Positions 55,139-61,519 are shown, counted from the stretch's first letter. The stretch: 64,000 bases of DNA from an uncultured cyanobacterium (GCA_963703315.1 OY969811.1:288001-352000); one strand, 5' to 3'. Numbers and translations are program-made. Notes: generated by a model not told the origin, from the sequence alone.

Positions 55139-57445
55139 ATGACTCAAGAGCCAGAACCGAAACCAAAGCTATCTCTCGAAGAGCAGATCACCGATATTGT
55201 TTTGAAAACGATCAAGACTGGTGGCATTGCTGGTGGTGGGATTGGTGCATTTTGGCAGTTGTTTATGGCGAGTGATATTCCCAAGGCGATCGCCTCGATG
55301 GTAATTGGTGCTGGTATATCCTATGGCGCGGCTTTGCTACAACCAATTCATGAGGGTAATAAAAAGCGCTTTAAGGGTTTAGGTGAGTCGGCAGATCGGG
55401 GTATCGAAAAGCTTGGCGAAAACGTAGCGGCAAATTGGCAAGCACTTGGCTTTGATGCGAAGTATCTACAATGTCAGATGTGGGACTGTCATGAAGACTA
55501 TGCGGTGGGATTGCGGGAAGATGAGAACTTGCCTGTGAATAATCCTTTGCTGCGTGAGGTATTTGTACCTTTGGAGCTATCTTCAGATTCCATTGCATCG
55601 GGTTATGAATTTCGCGATCGCGATGAAAGGTGCCAGCAGATTCAGATTTGGGAATTACTGGAAAGGGTAAAGCAGGATAATCGGTTGCGCCAGATTGCGA
55701 TTAGGGCTTGGGGCGGTTATGGCAAATCAACTTTGTTAAAGCATCTGACTTACATTTACAGCACTGGTGAATATAACAAGGGTGATTTTCGTAAATATAA
55801 GGCTCCTAAGTTTGTGCCATTTTTGCTCTATCTAGCAGGATCTTGGAAAGAGATCGCCAAAGAGAATCCGCCAGATTTGCCCGAACTATTGACCACGTTT
55901 CACATTGGGCGATTATCCAAAATCAAGGAGTTAGAAACGGTTCCACCGAATTGGGCGCTAAATTTACTACGGCGCGGTGATGCTCTGGTGATGTTTGATG
56001 GATTTGATGAAGTGCCACCTGTGCAGAGAGCAAAGGTGAGTGAGTGGCTGAGTGCAGAAATGCAGAAATATCGTGAAGCAGTTTTCATTGTGACTTCGCG
56101 CCCGACTGCTTTTCGAGAAGATTATGTAGCACGAAAACCAACTGCGAGTTTTTGGATTCAGGATTTTAATCAGGAACAGCGTAAGCAATTTGTGGAGCAG
56201 TGGTATTTGTGCCAAGAGCGCTATGCGAGGGCTGGACGGAATACTCCTGATGTGGAGGCGAAGGCGAAGGAGAGAGCGAAGTCTCTATTAGAACAAATTC
56301 AGGCACGTCCAGAGTTGAATGATATTGCGGGGAATGTGTTGCTATTGAATATGATGGCGCGGTTTCATCGGGATAATAAGATGGGGGCGGAGTTACCACA
56401 GCGTAAGGTGGAGCTATATCAAGAGATTTGTGAGTTACAGTTGGGGCGGCGACCAAGTGCTAGGGGAATTGCTCTGTTGCTAACTTCTATTAATCAACGT
56501 CAAGAGGTGTTGCAAGTTGTAGCTTTGAAAATGATGAAACGGGCTGTGTTTGACAGTGATAAAGAAGGTTTCAAACAAATTCAAAGGGATAGTTTATTGC
56601 AACTTATTCAAATGTATTTAGCAATGATCAAATCCGATGTTGATTCGCGGGAATTTTTAGCGCAAATGGTTCAGGTGAGTGAACTCTTAGTTGAAAGAGA
56701 TGGAAATATTTATCAGTTTTCGCACTTGAGCTTTCAGGAGTTTTTAGCAGCTTCAGAAATTGTCAGATTACAACAAGAAACCTTGTTATATGAGCATTTA
56801 AGCTTGAGTGCATGGAAAGATATGATTTTGTTCTATGCCAGTTTGGTTAATCCGACAAGGTTGATCCAAGAGGCAATTAATCGTAATGAAACAGATTTAG
56901 CGTATCTTATCTATCAACAAATTGATAAGAATTTAAATTTGTCGGCGGATGAGAGAAAGACTTTGGATAGTTTAAAAGAATCGGTTAATACCTCACGCTA
57001 TCATCAATTAGAAGAATATCTCAAAGCAAAGGAATGGTATAAAGCAGATGAAGAAACCTATAAGTTGATGATTACGGCGGTGGGTAAGGATGTTGGACAG
57101 GGATTTAGTTTAGATAATTTACGCAATTTCCCCTGTGATGAGTTACTGGCTATAGATCGCTTGTGGGTAAAACATAGCAATGGACTTTATGGCTTTAGCG
57201 TCCAGAAGGATATTTATGTCAAATGTGGTGGTAAGCTAGATTTTAGTTTGCCAAGTTCAGAGATTTGGGAAGAATTTTGCGATCGCACGGCATGGAAAAG
57301 CGAGGGTAAATGGGTGGACTATCCCCAACAATTTTTTGATAATAATTTTATGTATGTAAAGGGACACCTCCCAATGGGGACACCTCCCAATTTGGAGGGT
57401 GGCGATGCATACTTCTTTTCTCGCATCAAGACTTGTGAAGTGTAA
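55139..57445 (+). CDS. NACHT NTPase with C-terminal GUN4 domain
   Basis: GGYGKST, FDGFDE, TSRP, FSHLSFQEFLAA; W.KADEET, IDRLWVKHSNG.YGFSVQ, GHLP...SRIKTCEV. Confidence 0.85.
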   Translation: MTQEPEPKPKLSLEEQITDIVLKTIKTGGIAGGGIGAFWQLFMASDIPKAIASMVIGAGISYGAALLQPIHEGNKKRFKGLGESADRGIEKLGENVAANWQALGFDAKYLQCQMWDCHEDYAVGLREDENLPVNNPLLREVFVPLELSSDSIASGYEFRDRDERCQQIQIWELLERVKQDNRLRQIAIRAWGGYGKSTLLKHLTYIYSTGEYNKGDFRKYKAPKFVPFLLYLAGSWKEIAKENPPDLPELLTTFHIGRLSKIKELETVPPNWALNLLRRGDALVMFDGFDEVPPVQRAKVSEWLSAEMQKYREAVFIVTSRPTAFREDYVARKPTASFWIQDFNQEQRKQFVEQWYLCQERYARAGRNTPDVEAKAKERAKSLLEQIQARPELNDIAGNVLLLNMMARFHRDNKMGAELPQRKVELYQEICELQLGRRPSARGIALLLTSINQRQEVLQVVALKMMKRAVFDSDKEGFKQIQRDSLLQLIQMYLAMIKSDVDSREFLAQMVQVSELLVERDGNIYQFSHLSFQEFLAASEIVRLQQETLLYEHLSLSAWKDMILFYASLVNPTRLIQEAINRNETDLAYLIYQQIDKNLNLSADERKTLDSLKESVNTSRYHQLEEYLKAKEWYKADEETYKLMITAVGKDVGQGFSLDNLRNFPCDELLAIDRLWVKHSNGLYGFSVQKDIYVKCGGKLDFSLPSSEIWEEFCDRTAWKSEGKWVDYPQQFFDNNFMYVKGHLPMGTPPNLEGGDAYFFSRIKTCEV

Positions 57446-57546: not shown

Positions 57547-59250
57547 CCCACATTCCGCTCGTAATGGAAGGAAAAAAACAATTACGAAACAGGAGCAGGG
57601 AGCAAATAGTAGCGTTGGCAGGAGGGAGAAAAGAAATTCAAAATGTGAAGGCGAAGCGGAGACAAATTTGCAACTTGAGTCAGGTTCTGAAAAGAAACTA
57701 AATGAACCGCCATAAAACATTGAAAAATCCAACGCAAAGTTGGCGAATTAGTGGGTTTACCCAATTGATTAGGAATAGTATCTTGAGCGATGGCTAAGGC
57801 AAGTCTGAGTTGACGTTGGGCTAAATTATAAACGAGCAAGCACAGTGCCATAATCATGCCCAAAGCCTCAATGCGTTTAGCAGACTTGAGAAAAACACTC
57901 GAAGTAAAAAACAAAGGATCTTTGAGGAAACGAAAACCACGCTCAGTGCTCTGCTGAGCCTTGTATTCCCGTAAAGCATCATCAGCCGTGAATTGTAAGG
58001 AATCAAGAATATTCGTGGCTAAAATAAACCTGCCACAACGCTGTTGCTGAGCCAAGATTTCTGAGTCTATAGGAATCACCGTTGCAGTAATCCGATAACT
58101 AATGCTGGTGGGTATAGCATCAGGTTGTGGCTTACCCCGTTTCGCATAATGTGGTTTTTCTACTGCCTGAATATGGTCGAGTTGATGCCATTTCATCTTG
58201 GTTGATAATTTTTCAGCAGCAGCGATCGCGTCAGCAGCACAGGCAAAATCTTGTCCCGCCAAAGTGTGTAAATCTTGATGACATTTTTGCTGGACTTGCT
58301 CAAGCTTTTTGTCTAACTTTTTGATGTCTGATTTACGTCTTGCTTGGCTATCAACTAAAATCCATCTCTGTCTTACACCACCATACTCACTCACAGTTTC
58401 GGCTGTCCTGTATCCCTTAAATTTACTTTCTTGTAGGTCAGTTGTGCTTGACACTAAGTCACTTGCAGTTTTGATGCTTAATGGCACTCGGGTTAGCCAT
58501 TTTAGTCCTGTCATTGCTACCAGATTTTCTTCACTGTATAGCGCTGCATCGCCTACGCATATTCCCTCAAATGTCCACTGGGTTTTGAATTCTTGTAATA
58601 GTCCTGCAAATCTTGCTTTGTCGGCTTGATTTCCACTTACCACTTCCATCATTACGGGAATGTCTCCATCTCCTACACAGATCAGGTTCATCATAAATTG
58701 CTTCAGGTCGGGGCGATGGTCGCGTGAATATCCGTGTGTGATTTCGATACTCCCTTCTTCCTCTCTGCCATATTCCCCATCTACGTGAAATGAGGTTGAG
58801 TCTATATGTCCTGTTTCTACCTTGACATCGTATTTCGCTACTGCTTTCAGGCTGATTCCTAAAAATGTCTCACTCAGTCCTGCTTCATGTAAGTCATCCA
58901 GTACTTTACCGATGCGGTCATCATTGATTTGTTCGGCTGTTATCCCTTCCCCCAATAAGTGCTCGGTTGCTTTTCCTTCAAAGAATTTACCAAACATATA
59001 CAGGGGCGCTGATACAAATCCTAATCCATTCAGGAGCATTGCTTTGACGATTACCCCTGCGCTTACTTTTTCTCTTGAGCTTCTCCCGATTATCGTGTTT
59101 ATTTCTTCCACGATTCCCATCTCGTCGATGATTCCTGCCACGATCCCTAGATGGTCTAGGTTCGTTACTTTCATCTCTGTATTAATATCTGCCTCCTCTT
59201 TTTGCCTTTTCTCTAATTATTTTACCCTTCCATTACGAGCGGAATGTGGG
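57547..59250 (-). mobile_element. IS1634-family insertion sequence, complete (1704 bp)
   Basis: Perfect 25-bp TIRs (57547-57571 / 59226-59250) and 5-bp TSD TTCAT (57542-57546 / 59251-59255). Confidence 0.92.
57582..59174 (-). CDS. IS1634-family DDE transposase
   Basis: LDHLGIVAG, HIDSTSF, GYSRDHRPDLKQ, DAALY, ERGFRFLKDP. Confidence 0.92.
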   Translation of the reverse strand: MKVTNLDHLGIVAGIIDEMGIVEEINTIIGRSSREKVSAGVIVKAMLLNGLGFVSAPLYMFGKFFEGKATEHLLGEGITAEQINDDRIGKVLDDLHEAGLSETFLGISLKAVAKYDVKVETGHIDSTSFHVDGEYGREEEGSIEITHGYSRDHRPDLKQFMMNLICVGDGDIPVMMEVVSGNQADKARFAGLLQEFKTQWTFEGICVGDAALYSEENLVAMTGLKWLTRVPLSIKTASDLVSSTTDLQESKFKGYRTAETVSEYGGVRQRWILVDSQARRKSDIKKLDKKLEQVQQKCHQDLHTLAGQDFACAADAIAAAEKLSTKMKWHQLDHIQAVEKPHYAKRGKPQPDAIPTSISYRITATVIPIDSEILAQQQRCGRFILATNILDSLQFTADDALREYKAQQSTERGFRFLKDPLFFTSSVFLKSAKRIEALGMIMALCLLVYNLAQRQLRLALAIAQDTIPNQLGKPTNSPTLRWIFQCFMAVHLVSFQNLTQVANLSPLRLHILNFFSPSCQRYYLLPAPVS

Positions 59251-59338
59251 TTCATTGTCACCACCGTCATTTTCCGACAATTTCTGGCAAAACATTATTC
59301 CCATAATTCTCGTAGATACTGTCTTGAGTACCAAAAAG

Positions 59339-60325
59339 TCAAGAGGGAATTTGAACAAAATTTGGGTCGAAAGAACGCTGAGACTTGAGAACGCCAAAGA
59401 CCTGTCGTAACAGCTTGTGCATGACAGCCCCAATGACAGACATTTTGGACTTACCCTTAGCCGTAAGGCGAGCGCAGAAAGCAGCAATCGGCAAATTATA
59501 ACGACGGGCAACAATCGCAGGCATAAACAAAGCTTTACGCAAACGCGAATTACCAATTTTAGATAAACGTGGCTTACCATGAATCGAAGAACCAGATGAG
59601 AACTCACGGGGAGTTAAACCCGCAAAAGCTGCCAGTTGATCAGCAGTATCAAAGGCAGAAATATCCCGAATTTCCGCCAGTAATATAGTTGCGGTCAGTT
59701 CAGCAATACCAGGAATAGAAGTCAACAAATCCCGTTGAGATTTCAAATGAGGGTGTTGATCAAAGTGCTGACGGATCAATTTTTTGGTCATCTCAATTTG
59801 CTCTTTGAGAAAATCAATGTGAGCATTAATTGCCTCAACCAAAATTGGATCAGCCGTAGCAAGACGATTCTGCTCTTGCTGCTGCATAGCAGTTAAGCTA
59901 TCTAAACGATGCACCAATGCTTGTAGTTGCTCAATTTCTAATGCTGGTGGTGTCCAAAGAGCAGGTTTTAAGGCTGCACAAAATCTAGCAATGACTTTAG
60001 CATCAGCACGGTCAGTCTTTGTACGACTTAACTCACTCTTGCCAAAGGCTTTGGGACGGGATGGATTAACAATACTTACTTTGTATCCTGCCTCTACTAA
60101 GAATCTAGCTAACCCATTGCCGTAAGTGCTGGTAGCTTCCATACAACTATGCAAGTTTGTCACATTTTGAAGGTTTAGCCATTCTTGTAATTCAGCAAAT
60201 CCTTCAGGATTGTTGGCAAATACTTTGCTCTTGATTTTGGCGTTGCCTTGGATTAGAGCAACATCAAATTTGGCTTTGCTGATATCTATTCCTAAAACAT
60301 CATATACTTCATTGTTATTGTTCAT
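59339..60325 (-). CDS. IS110 recombinase (DEDD RuvC + Tnp domain)
   Basis: GIDISK, MEAT, KTDRADA, SIPGI, FSSGSS catalytic Ser, GNSRLR. Confidence 0.95.
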   Translation of the reverse strand: MNNNNEVYDVLGIDISKAKFDVALIQGNAKIKSKVFANNPEGFAELQEWLNLQNVTNLHSCMEATSTYGNGLARFLVEAGYKVSIVNPSRPKAFGKSELSRTKTDRADAKVIARFCAALKPALWTPPALEIEQLQALVHRLDSLTAMQQQEQNRLATADPILVEAINAHIDFLKEQIEMTKKLIRQHFDQHPHLKSQRDLLTSIPGIAELTATILLAEIRDISAFDTADQLAAFAGLTPREFSSGSSIHGKPRLSKIGNSRLRKALFMPAIVARRYNLPIAAFCARLTAKGKSKMSVIGAVMHKLLRQVFGVLKSQRSFDPNFVQIPS

Positions 60326-60364
60326 TGGGGGCAGTCCTCTTGCTAGATTTGTCCATCAAGCAAT

Positions 60365-60562
60365 CAGTGGTATTGAACTATCCTTGTGAATGCAGGTTTA
60401 CCCGTTGGGCGACCTCTGATACTGTCCAGTCTTTACTTGTTTCCACTGTTTAAGCAGAGACGACTCTATCTACAAAACGGGCTTGGTGTCCCTAGGGGCA
60501 GATCGAGTTTATCTCTGCTTTTGCTTTTTCGGATTGTAGTAAAGATTTTATCCTTTACTTTT
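60365..60562 (-). ncRNA. Predicted bridge RNA (5' hairpin, target-binding loop, donor-binding loop); ends approximate
   Basis: Guides UCUGCCCCU (60494-60502), GUAG (60470-60473), ACAGUAUC (60418-60425) and ACAAG (60383-60387) match the reconstructed target and donor; closing stems visible. Confidence 0.85.
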
Positions 60563-60575
60563 CCTCCTAGATACA

Positions 60576-60776
60576 AGGGGCAGAGCATTCCCGCAGAAAT
60601 TTATGATTTTTCAGATCCTCTCAAATCGGGAATGCTCTGCCCTAAACCTCACACATTTACCGACAATCCCCAAACCGCAGAGATAAATTATTCGTTACAG
60701 CAAAGAGGGTAGAGCATTTGCCGATAGAGATTTCGGTGATAATTTACAAATATTGGCGCAAATGCTCTACCCCTAC
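60576..60776. repeat. REP cassette 1 (two hairpins), upstream of RAYT; 5' GTAG split by IS110
   Basis: gggcagagcattcccg/cgggaatgctctgccc and gggtagagcatttgc/gcaaatgctctacccctac. Confidence 0.85.
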
Positions 60777-60803
60777 ATTTGCCACATCTGCCATATTTAT
60801 TTT

Positions 60804-61283
60804 ATGTCTTACAATCCTGAAATTCATTATCGACGTTCTATCCGTTTGCAAGGATATGACTATACAAGCGCAGGAATCTATTTTGTAACCATCTGTTGCC
60901 ATCAAAGACAGCATTTGTTTGGAGAAATAGAAAATGGAGAGATGAAAATAAATGCGATCGGTCAAATTGTCTCTAACCTATGGCAAAAGATTCCTCAGCA
61001 TTTTCCGAATGTAGAGCTTGATGCATTTATTCTGATGCCCGATCACCTACATGGAATCATCGTAATTTCAGAATCAAAGGGAAAATCCTCCTTAGCCAAT
61101 ATTATCCAAAATTTTAAATCTATTTCCTCTCGCAAAATCAATCGTATTAACAAAAACTACGGCGTATCGATTTGGCAACGCAATTATTACGAAAAGATTA
61201 TCAGATCTGAACAGGAATTAAAAAATCTGCGTGAATACATTAAAAATAATCCAGCTAATTGGACAGATTGCAATACCGAATAA
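60804..61283 (+). CDS. REP-associated tyrosine transposase (RAYT, Y1 HUH)
   Basis: RRSIRLQGYDY...YFVTIC, MPDHLHGI, WQRNYYE.IIR, YI.NNP; ATG 60804 preferred because the upstream in-frame ATG lies in the REP. Confidence 0.9.
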   Translation: MSYNPEIHYRRSIRLQGYDYTSAGIYFVTICCHQRQHLFGEIENGEMKINAIGQIVSNLWQKIPQHFPNVELDAFILMPDHLHGIIVISESKGKSSLANIIQNFKSISSRKINRINKNYGVSIWQRNYYEKIIRSEQELKNLREYIKNNPANWTDCNTE

Positions 61284-61316
61284 ATCGAGATAATGTTTTT
61301 ATTCGCATGATTCTCT

Positions 61317-61519
61317 TAGGGGCAGAGCATTCCCGCAGAAATTTATGATTTTTCAGATCCTCTCAAATCGGGAATGCTCTGCCCTAAACCTCCCACATTC
61401 ATCGACAATCCCCAAACCGCAGGGATAAATTATGGATAAAAGCCAAGAGGGTAGAGCATTTGCGGATATAGATAGTAGTAGCAATTTGAAAGATAGTGAC
61501 GCAAATGCTCTACCCCTAC
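61317..61519. repeat. REP cassette 2, direct repeat of cassette 1
   Basis: 61318-61392 is identical to 60576-60650; same second hairpin arms. Confidence 0.88.

What the first reader, a model, noticed from the sequence alone, without database searches (positions are those of the whole stretch)
59299..61519. Three-tier arrangement: the IS110 is aimed at the REP belonging to the adjacent RAYT, and chose the only fully cognate copy
The insertion splits the GTAG-GGGCAGAGC start of REP cassette 1. Cassette 2 reads TTAG instead of GTAG, giving CTAA, which mismatches the GUAG guide. The inner arms read TCTGCCCTA (one C short). The second hairpins read TCTACCCCTAC (60766-60776, 61509-61519), one mismatch to the left guide. 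Only the occupied site matches both guides. Inference: RAYT-propagated REPs supply landing pads for an RNA-guided IS. The insertion separates the GTAG tetranucleotide that RAYTs are known to recognise from its hairpin, and REP variants may act as escape alleles.
Basis: partly seen in the sequence, partly recalled or inferred. Interest (0 to 1): 0.75.

Follow-up and report, generated by a model that had tools for sequence, protein, structure and literature searches.

The report
Guide-RNA jumping gene targets host repeats
A small jumping gene in this cyanobacterium uses a guide RNA to land in the ends of a family of repeated hairpins, a habit already known from E. coli and Pseudomonas; the new detail is that its close relatives carry different guides matched to different repeat variants, and one appears to have swapped its guide with a neighbour.

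Summary
The element is an IS621-type IS110 bridge recombinase with 7 near-identical copies in the genome. Six sit in the GTAG foot of the REP family that flanks this RAYT. Occupancy favours perfect sites: 5 of 10, against 1 of 51 mismatched REP ends (p=2e-4). IS110s targeting REPs is known (IS621, IS1594, ISPpu9/10), and this scan noted it before on other DNA.

The special claims fail. Nothing points to the RAYT's own REP being singled out: it is one of ten perfect sites. Mismatched variants are not escape alleles. One is occupied here, they flank RAYTs in relatives where no IS was found, a relative with the same guide has 0 of 9 perfect sites, and the cognate variant is not depleted where the IS occurs (p=0.44).

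The comparison across relatives is more interesting. Close relatives carry seven guide alleles that covary with REP variants and families. One copy shows a clean swap of its target-binding loop between co-resident lineages, and three genomes have junctions exactly at the guide-coding core. Verdict: new member of a known kind, with a testable lead on how guides are retargeted in nature.

The parts
59312..59315 (+). GTAG foot of REP cassette 1, left behind at the junction; AG 59314-15 is one copy of the CT/AG recombination core
   Evidence: sequence; the same junction in 7 of 7 copies
59314..60577 (-). IS110 (IS621 group) element, 1264 bp with both cores; 7 copies in the genome at 99.9-100% identity; its joined ends give the IS621 donor ACAGTAT-CT-TGTAT
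   Evidence: IS621 donor in the supplement of PMC11208160
59339..60325 (-). 328-aa bridge recombinase; D14, E63, D105, D108 and S244 correspond to IS621 D11/E60/D102/D105/S241
   Evidence: PF01548 and PF02371; NF033542 244.7 bits vs cut-off 140; PDB hits ISCro4 and IS621; motif positions; IS621 residues from PMC11208158
59316..59338 (-). short right end carrying the left donor arm
60380..60530 (-). predicted bridge RNA in the long left end (limits approximate)
   Evidence: fold of 60340-60540, z=-3.61; 6 of 34 consensus pairs have double-sided changes in 10 relatives; no Rfam family reaches its gathering score
60494..60502 (-). left target guide TCTGCCC-CT; this DNA is itself a 10-of-11 match to the target
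   Evidence: covariation with targets
60470..60476 (-). right target guide GTAG with a 5' TTT extension; the one non-REP copy in the genome pairs with all 7 bases
60418..60425 (-). left donor guide ACAGTATC
60383..60387 (-). right donor guide ACAAG
   Evidence: sequence; conserved in relatives
60578..60644 (+). hairpin A of REP cassette 1, now preceded by CAAG instead of GTAG
60707..60776 (-). hairpin B of REP cassette 1, intact GTAG foot, TCTACCC variant, unoccupied
60804..61283 (+). 159-aa RAYT (TnpA-REP), the only PF01797 match in the genome; DHLH, WQ and YIKNNP motifs, like subclass 2.4
   Evidence: NF047646 85.7 bits vs cut-off 80; motifs; PMC6006769 table and section 12
61316..61519 (+). 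REP cassette 2: TTAG-footed hairpin A (near-identical to cassette 1, including about 16 bp of upstream flank) and GTAG-footed hairpin B, both unoccupied

Best explanation
An intact, recently active IS621-type IS110 element. Its left end encodes a bridge RNA. The donor loop reads the element's joined ends and the target loop reads TCTGCCC-CT-AC, the GTAG foot of the genome's RAYT-associated REP family. The recombinase joins the two at the CT core. REP ends are simply the supply of targets: all 10 perfect sites in the genome are REP ends. The element fills cognate ends first but tolerates mismatches, and the RAYT-flanking REP was hit because it is one of ten cognate ends. Across the genus the guides follow existing REP variants, not the reverse. 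The 3-4 variable REP positions are shared by both arms of a hairpin and occur where no IS was found, and IS relatives carry guide alleles that match them. Because the donor sequence is shared, a copy can probably be placed by a co-resident element's bridge RNA. Shown: boundaries, copy number, occupancy bias, guide-target covariation, REP-RAYT association. Inferred from IS621 work: that the RNA is made, binds the recombinase and catalyses these events. Inferred from the RAYT literature: that the RAYT spread the REPs.
For: Protein family and catalytic residues. Donor identical to IS621's. 7 of 7 junctions at the same core. Occupancy 5 of 10 perfect, 1 of 35 one-mismatch REP ends, 0 of 16 two-mismatch REP ends, 0 of 42 and 1 of 525 non-REP sites. 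In 49 insertion sites from 11 genomes and 5 metagenome contigs, the element's own guide matches 2.94 of the 4 variable positions vs 1.90 shuffled; per genome-and-allele unit 3.07 vs 1.82 (0 of 20,000 shuffles reach it); allele-level 27 of 5040 permutations. 38 of those 49 sites are in GTAG-REP families A-D. In 14 more distant elements, 10 sites match their guide perfectly and 4 have one mismatch, including ACCGCGA and CCCGCCC guides. The variable 4-mer is identical in both hairpin arms in 43 of 59 cases. L033 has 6 mismatches to its own guide but sits in the exact target of co-resident L041.
Against: No expression, circle or activity data for this element. 16 of 49 sites have 2 or more mismatches to the resident guide. 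I explain these by mismatch tolerance, trans action or later guide change, and tested none of them. Related genomes are not independent, so the permutation p-values overstate. REP context was defined by a short motif, so a few decayed ends are counted as non-REP. The RTG extension matches the flank at the first position in 16 of 23 elements but only in 6-9 of 23 beyond it, so its variability is not explained by targeting.
Confidence: 0.88

Rival explanations
1. Arms race: REP variants such as TTAG and TCTACCC are selected because they escape the IS guide and preserve RAYT recognition.
For: Occupancy is strongly biased to cognate ends (5 of 10 vs 1 of 51). The variable REP positions fall inside the LTG footprint. 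G009, which has many copies of this guide, has no empty cognate end (0 of 20).
Against: The variants exist in genomes without an IS match. TCTACCC is the commonest end type at RAYT loci (34 of 68). There is no depletion in IS-positive genomes (p=0.44). Several IS-negative genomes also have no cognate end (G049 0 of 16, G011 0 of 46). Mismatched ends are used: 0 of 9 G009 sites are perfect, and sister guides match those very variants.
Confidence: 0.08
2. Sequence plus structure: the recombinase needs the REP hairpin as well as the guide match, as reported for ISPpu10, so REPs are more than a sequence supply.
For: 10.64898/2026.03.19.712850 (abstract, sections 7 and 11 read) reports a target stem-loop gate. 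Here 6 of 7 copies are in hairpin ends, and 0 of 42 one-mismatch non-REP sites are used.
Against: 1 of 35 vs 0 of 42 at one mismatch is not significant (p=0.45). No perfect non-REP site exists in this genome to separate sequence from structure. One copy here and 11 of 49 sites overall lie outside the REP families, some with perfect guide matches (L055, L088).
Confidence: 0.3
3. The IS has a specific link to the RAYT locus (co-mobility, or inactivation of the REPtron).
For: A second IS110 abuts a RAYT gene in G044 (L136/L100).
Against: 1 of 7 copies here and 1 of 17 relatives' RAYT loci. RAYT loci are simply rich in cognate ends. The RAYT frame is intact and two GTAG-footed hairpins remain.
Confidence: 0.07

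Closest known systems
IS621 of E. coli and its bridge RNA (PMC11208160: passages, section 9 and supplement search read; PMC11208158: passages read)
   Same: DEDD + Ser recombinase, long left end with bridge RNA, CT core, identical 14-bp donor, GTAG right target guide, inserts at the CTAC end of REPs (144 of 173 sites in their assay), tolerates a mismatch at target position 4. The paper reports guide-target covariation over 5,511 pairs, and its supplement holds other elements' targets with the same TCTGCCCCTAC 11-mer.
   Different: Cyanobacterial host, long double-hairpin REP cassettes of a subclass-2.4-like RAYT, a different target-loop scaffold, and several guide alleles among 88-100% identical elements of one genus.
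IS1594 of Anabaena (PMC3184786: passage read, citing Choi 2003, which I did not read)
   Same: A cyanobacterial IS110/IS492-family element inserting into REP-like sequences.
   Different: Its sequence was not compared here; the passage describes no guide or RAYT link.
ISPpu9 and ISPpu10 of Pseudomonas putida (10.1101/2025.01.17.633520 passages; 10.64898/2026.03.19.712850 abstract and two sections)
   Same: IS110 elements with several copies in REPs, duplicated AG/CT core, targets often in convergent pairs under 200 bp apart.
   Different: A need for a target stem-loop was shown for ISPpu10 and is untested here; no Ssr9-like module was seen here.
TnpA-REP/RAYT subclass 2.4 REPtrons (PMC6006769: passages and section 12 read)
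   Same: HUH-Y1 gene flanked by long GTAG-footed REPs with three G-C pairs at the stem base; WQ and YIxNNP motifs; found in Cyanobacteria.
   Different: The HUH context here is DHLH, not NH[IFV]H; the subclass was not tested with their profiles.

Membership tests
IS110 family, IS110 (IS621) group bridge recombinase | N-terminal DEDD RuvC domain and C-terminal Tnp domain with catalytic serine | tested here: met
   residues as
IS110 family, IS110 (IS621) group bridge recombinase | Long left end, short right end, short duplicated core, no long terminal repeats | tested here: met
   left end about 250 bp, right end about 23 bp, CT core in 7 of 7 copies
IS110 family, IS110 (IS621) group bridge recombinase | Left-end RNA with LTG/RTG and LDG/RDG matching target and donor | tested here: met
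   covariation
IS110 family, IS110 (IS621) group bridge recombinase | Bridge RNA expressed, circular intermediate formed, RNA-dependent recombination | not testable with these tools
RAYT / TnpA-REP REPtron | HUH and Y1 motifs; passes the REP-associated tyrosine transposase profile; single copy | tested here: met
   NF047646 above cut-off and IS200 model below; one PF01797 match in the genome; motifs
RAYT / TnpA-REP REPtron | Flanked by GTAG-footed REPs that are also dispersed in the genome and go with the enzyme across relatives | tested here: met
   62 family-A ends in the genome; 13 of 17 orthologous loci have both end types; other RAYT clades have other REPs
RAYT / TnpA-REP REPtron | Enzyme cleaves and mobilises its REPs through GTAG recognition | not testable with these tools
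   taken from PMC6006769 passages for the E. coli enzyme
TnpA-Y1 subclass 2.4 | NH[IFV]H, WQ, YIxNNP motifs; long or double-foot REPs | tested here: inconclusive
   WQ and YIKNNP met; DHLH differs

The most novel reading that the evidence does not exclude
Co-resident IS110 lineages that share one donor sequence act as a pool of exchangeable guides. Short recombination tracts move the target-binding loop between lineages: in G044, L100 has L101's recombinase gene with L069's loop. This retargets an element in one step from one RAYT-associated REP family to another. In addition, the DNA that encodes the left guide is itself a near-perfect target and is sometimes recombined by the element's own enzyme (junctions exactly at that core in G044, G009 and G060). 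This would be a natural route of bridge-RNA reprogramming that tracks the REP subfamilies of different RAYTs.
Probability: 0.4. Interest if true: 0.62.

Novelty: new member of a known kind. Interest (0 to 1): 0.34.

Why it matters
The core arrangement is ordinary: IS110 elements have long been known to use REPs as landing sites. The value is the natural series. One cyanobacterial genus holds near-identical elements with the IS621 donor, seven or more guide alleles, at least five REP families and several RAYT clades. That makes an open question testable: how bridge-RNA guides get reprogrammed in nature. It also offers natural data on mismatch tolerance, placement in trans and self-targeting, which matter for bridge-recombinase editing tools.

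Tried and rejected
Escape-allele reading: rejected.

Special aiming at the RAYT-flanking REP: rejected; it is 1 of 10 equal sites.

RTG extension as a strong determinant or a record of past flanks: only the first base tends to match (16 of 23; then 9, 7 and 6 of 23).

Guide positions as uniquely hypervariable: they are variable (0.7-1.4 bits vs a mean of 0.18 elsewhere), but 11 of 216 other left-end columns exceed 0.9 bits, and mosaic tracts occur all along the element (18 of 91 pairs at uncorrected p<0.01). No guide-specific swapping mechanism is claimed.

A binomial p of 1.8e-5 for breakpoints at the guide core (3 of 5) was discounted. The G060 junction shares 7 bases with the partner element, the G044 one could use about 9 bases shared with a REP end, and the G009 one lies near a contig end and has one extra base.

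Verifying L100 in reads: the 24 runs listed were mostly other metagenomes, the best holding 0.63 of the words. In all four runs laid, the contigs carry the other letter at the one guide position listed. This suggests L100's allele is the derived one but does not exclude an assembly error.

No match: left end in plasmids; guide-loop pattern in viral contigs; Rfam at gathering score; RAYT in PDB sequences; earlier scan notes on this genome or protein. The close target-loop scaffold was found in 11 of 401 genomes of the class, in 3 of 169 genera.

The CDS tree is mostly unresolved (4 of 12 inner branches starred), so no count of guide changes is given.

Full report
OBSERVATION. The element runs 59314-60577 with the core AG at both ends, splits GTAG from GGGCAGAGC, and encodes a 328-aa protein on the minus strand. 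The protein passes NCBIfam's IS110 RNA-guided transposase model (244.7 bits, cut-off 140), and its only PDB sequence hits are ISCro4 and IS621. D14, E63, D105, D108 and S244 line up with the IS621 catalytic residues given in PMC11208158 (passages). The gene at 60804-61283 passes the RAYT model, fails the IS200 model and is the genome's only PF01797 match. The closest IS110 records with titles are mostly Pseudanabaena.

BRIDGE RNA. The left end folds better than all 200 shuffles (z=-3.61), and 6 of 34 consensus pairs show double-sided changes in ten relatives. It carries LTG TCTGCCCCT, RTG GTAG, LDG ACAGTATC and RDG ACAAG. The joined ends give ACAGTAT-CT-TGTAT, the donor listed for wild-type IS621 in the supplement of PMC11208160 (one supplementary PDF could not be searched and two files were cut when stored). 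That the RNA is made and works is inferred from IS621, not shown.

GENOME-WIDE COUNT. There are 7 copies at 99.9-100% identity, all joined at the same core. With the copies removed in silico, the genome has 10 perfect 11-mers (0.83 expected), all at REP ends, and 5 are occupied. Of 35 one-mismatch REP ends 1 is occupied (a TCTACCC end), of 16 two-mismatch REP ends 0, of 42 one-mismatch non-REP sites 0, and of 525 two-mismatch non-REP sites 1. Perfect vs mismatched REP ends gives p=2.4e-4; perfect vs TCTACCC ends alone gives p=0.14. The non-REP copy pairs with seven bases of the right guide, in line with the extended pairing described in section 9 of PMC11208160. REP context was called from the four bases ATGC before the site, so a few decayed ends count as non-REP.

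REP AND RAYT. RAYT relatives were found in 37 of 48 genomes of the genus. I took the 17 loci whose RAYT is 70-91% identical. 13 of 17 carry both the CAGA and TAGA end types, and 60 of 68 ends are GTAG-CAGA or GTAG-TAGA. More distant RAYT clades are flanked by other GTAG families. The family therefore goes with this enzyme; that the enzyme spreads it is taken from PMC6006769 (passages and section 12).

ESCAPE ALLELES FAIL. TCTACCC is the usual hairpin-B end at these loci, including genomes with no left-end match. TTAG recurs at the same place in G007, where neither the protein nor the left end was found. The fraction of cognate ends among family-A ends is 0.15 (median) in 14 IS-positive and 0.17 in 21 IS-negative genomes (p=0.44). 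For that test I dropped 4 of 48 genomes with only weak matches and 9 with fewer than 10 ends, and added occupied sites back only for G000 and G046. G009 carries the same guide, has 0 empty cognate ends among 20 and has 0 of 9 insertions in perfect sites. The variable 4-mer is the same in both arms of a hairpin in 43 of 59 cases, as expected for REP subfamilies.

GUIDES FOLLOW REPS. Left ends matched in 18 of 48 genomes. After removing duplicates I had 49 sites with both a guide and a left target, from 11 genomes and 5 metagenome contigs. One site with a variant left-end start (L070) and six fragments lacking the full loop were left out. There are seven guide alleles. Mismatches to the resident guide are 0 in 18 sites, 1 in 15, 2 in 9 and 3 or more in 7; 38 of 49 sites are in REP families A-D. 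Own guides match 2.94 of the four variable positions against 1.90 shuffled, and the allele-level exact test gives 27 of 5040. Kin are not independent, so these overstate. Fourteen more distant elements, read by hand, match their own guides perfectly in 10 cases and with one mismatch in 4; two loci without a readable left-end start and two duplicates were dropped. They include a CCCGCCC guide in the REP family of another RAYT clade (L078, L060) and an ACCGCGA guide (L041). L033 mismatches its own guide at 6 of 7 positions but sits in L041's exact target in the same genome, which suggests placement in trans through the shared donor (inference).

A GUIDE SWAP. In G044, L100 and L101 have identical recombinase genes and, over the aligned length, differ at only five positions, all within 27 bases of the target loop (chance about 1e-6). 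There L100 is identical to the co-resident L069 lineage, from which it differs at 110 other positions. L100's left flank belongs to the family matched by L101's guide, but its right flank is a RAYT upstream region, so it also marks a rearrangement. Short gene conversion is the simplest reading. Mosaic tracts occur throughout these elements (18 of 91 pairs), so no loop-specific mechanism is needed. An assembly error is not excluded.

SELF-TARGETING, UNPROVEN. The guide-coding DNA matches the target at 10 of 11 positions. In 3 of 48 genomes the left end stops or is interrupted exactly at that core. L102 is the left end's first 84 bases, identical to L101's, followed directly by the REP cassette's flank. 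L121 continues into a second left end with one extra base near a contig end. L091 joins another repeated element with which it shares seven bases. Half-match recombination as described in 10.64898/2026.08.31.748434 (abstract and section 8) would explain them; microhomology deletion would too.

WHAT IS KNOWN. IS621 targets REPs, and guide-target covariation is published (PMC11208160). IS1594 inserts in REP-like sequences of Anabaena (PMC3184786 passage). ISPpu9 and ISPpu10 target Pseudomonas REPs. This scan has noted the same arrangement in other genomes. Six searches listed no paper whose title or abstract start describes natural guide-loop exchange, self-targeting of the guide DNA, or guides tracking RAYT-specific REP variants. 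Apart from the papers cited above I saw those hits as listings only, and the library lacks most subscription journals.

VERDICT. Observation confirmed; interpretation partly supported. New member of a known kind, interest 0.34. The most novel reading, exchangeable guides among co-resident elements, has probability about 0.4 and would merit about 0.6.

Noticed in passing
window 57547-59250: An IS1634-family element with 31-nt terminal inverted repeats ends about 60 bp before the REP foot; 8 copies in the genome, one of them in two pieces.
   Followed up: partly
G000:C1:2714875-2717575 and 3075044-3077747: Two REP cassettes carry IS110 at both ends in inverted orientation, so 4 of the 6 REP insertions are paired. 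The only mismatched REP end that is occupied has an occupied partner (1 of 2 vs 0 of 7, p=0.22). Local hopping is possible but not shown.
   Followed up: partly
window 59296-59315 with 60578-60731, against 61300-61473: The first half of cassette 2 and about 16 bp of its upstream flank are nearly identical to cassette 1, which suggests recent duplication or conversion across the RAYT gene.
   Followed up: partly
window 55139-57445; L124-L128, L130-L134, L140: A NACHT-domain gene (GUN4-like domain in the window's copy) lies upstream of the RAYT in 11 of 17 relatives, but at 35-66% identity while the RAYTs there are 80-91% identical; the dapL gene downstream was seen only in this genome.
   Followed up: no
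G000:C1 about 3985030-3985710: Six family-A REP ends in a tandem array with a 131-bp period.
   Followed up: no
L147-L150: A longer RAYT clade carries its GTAGGGGCGGGTTT REPs inside the gene, as described for subclass 2.4; the same family is targeted by a CCCGCCC guide.
   Followed up: partly
L063, L076, L048: A short non-autonomous derivative (left end to position 130 joined to the last 229 bp) keeps the target loop and both ends.
   Followed up: no
window 60470-60476 and relatives: The four bases 5' of the right target guide vary as much as the left guide, yet only the first tends to match the flank; unexplained.
   Followed up: partly
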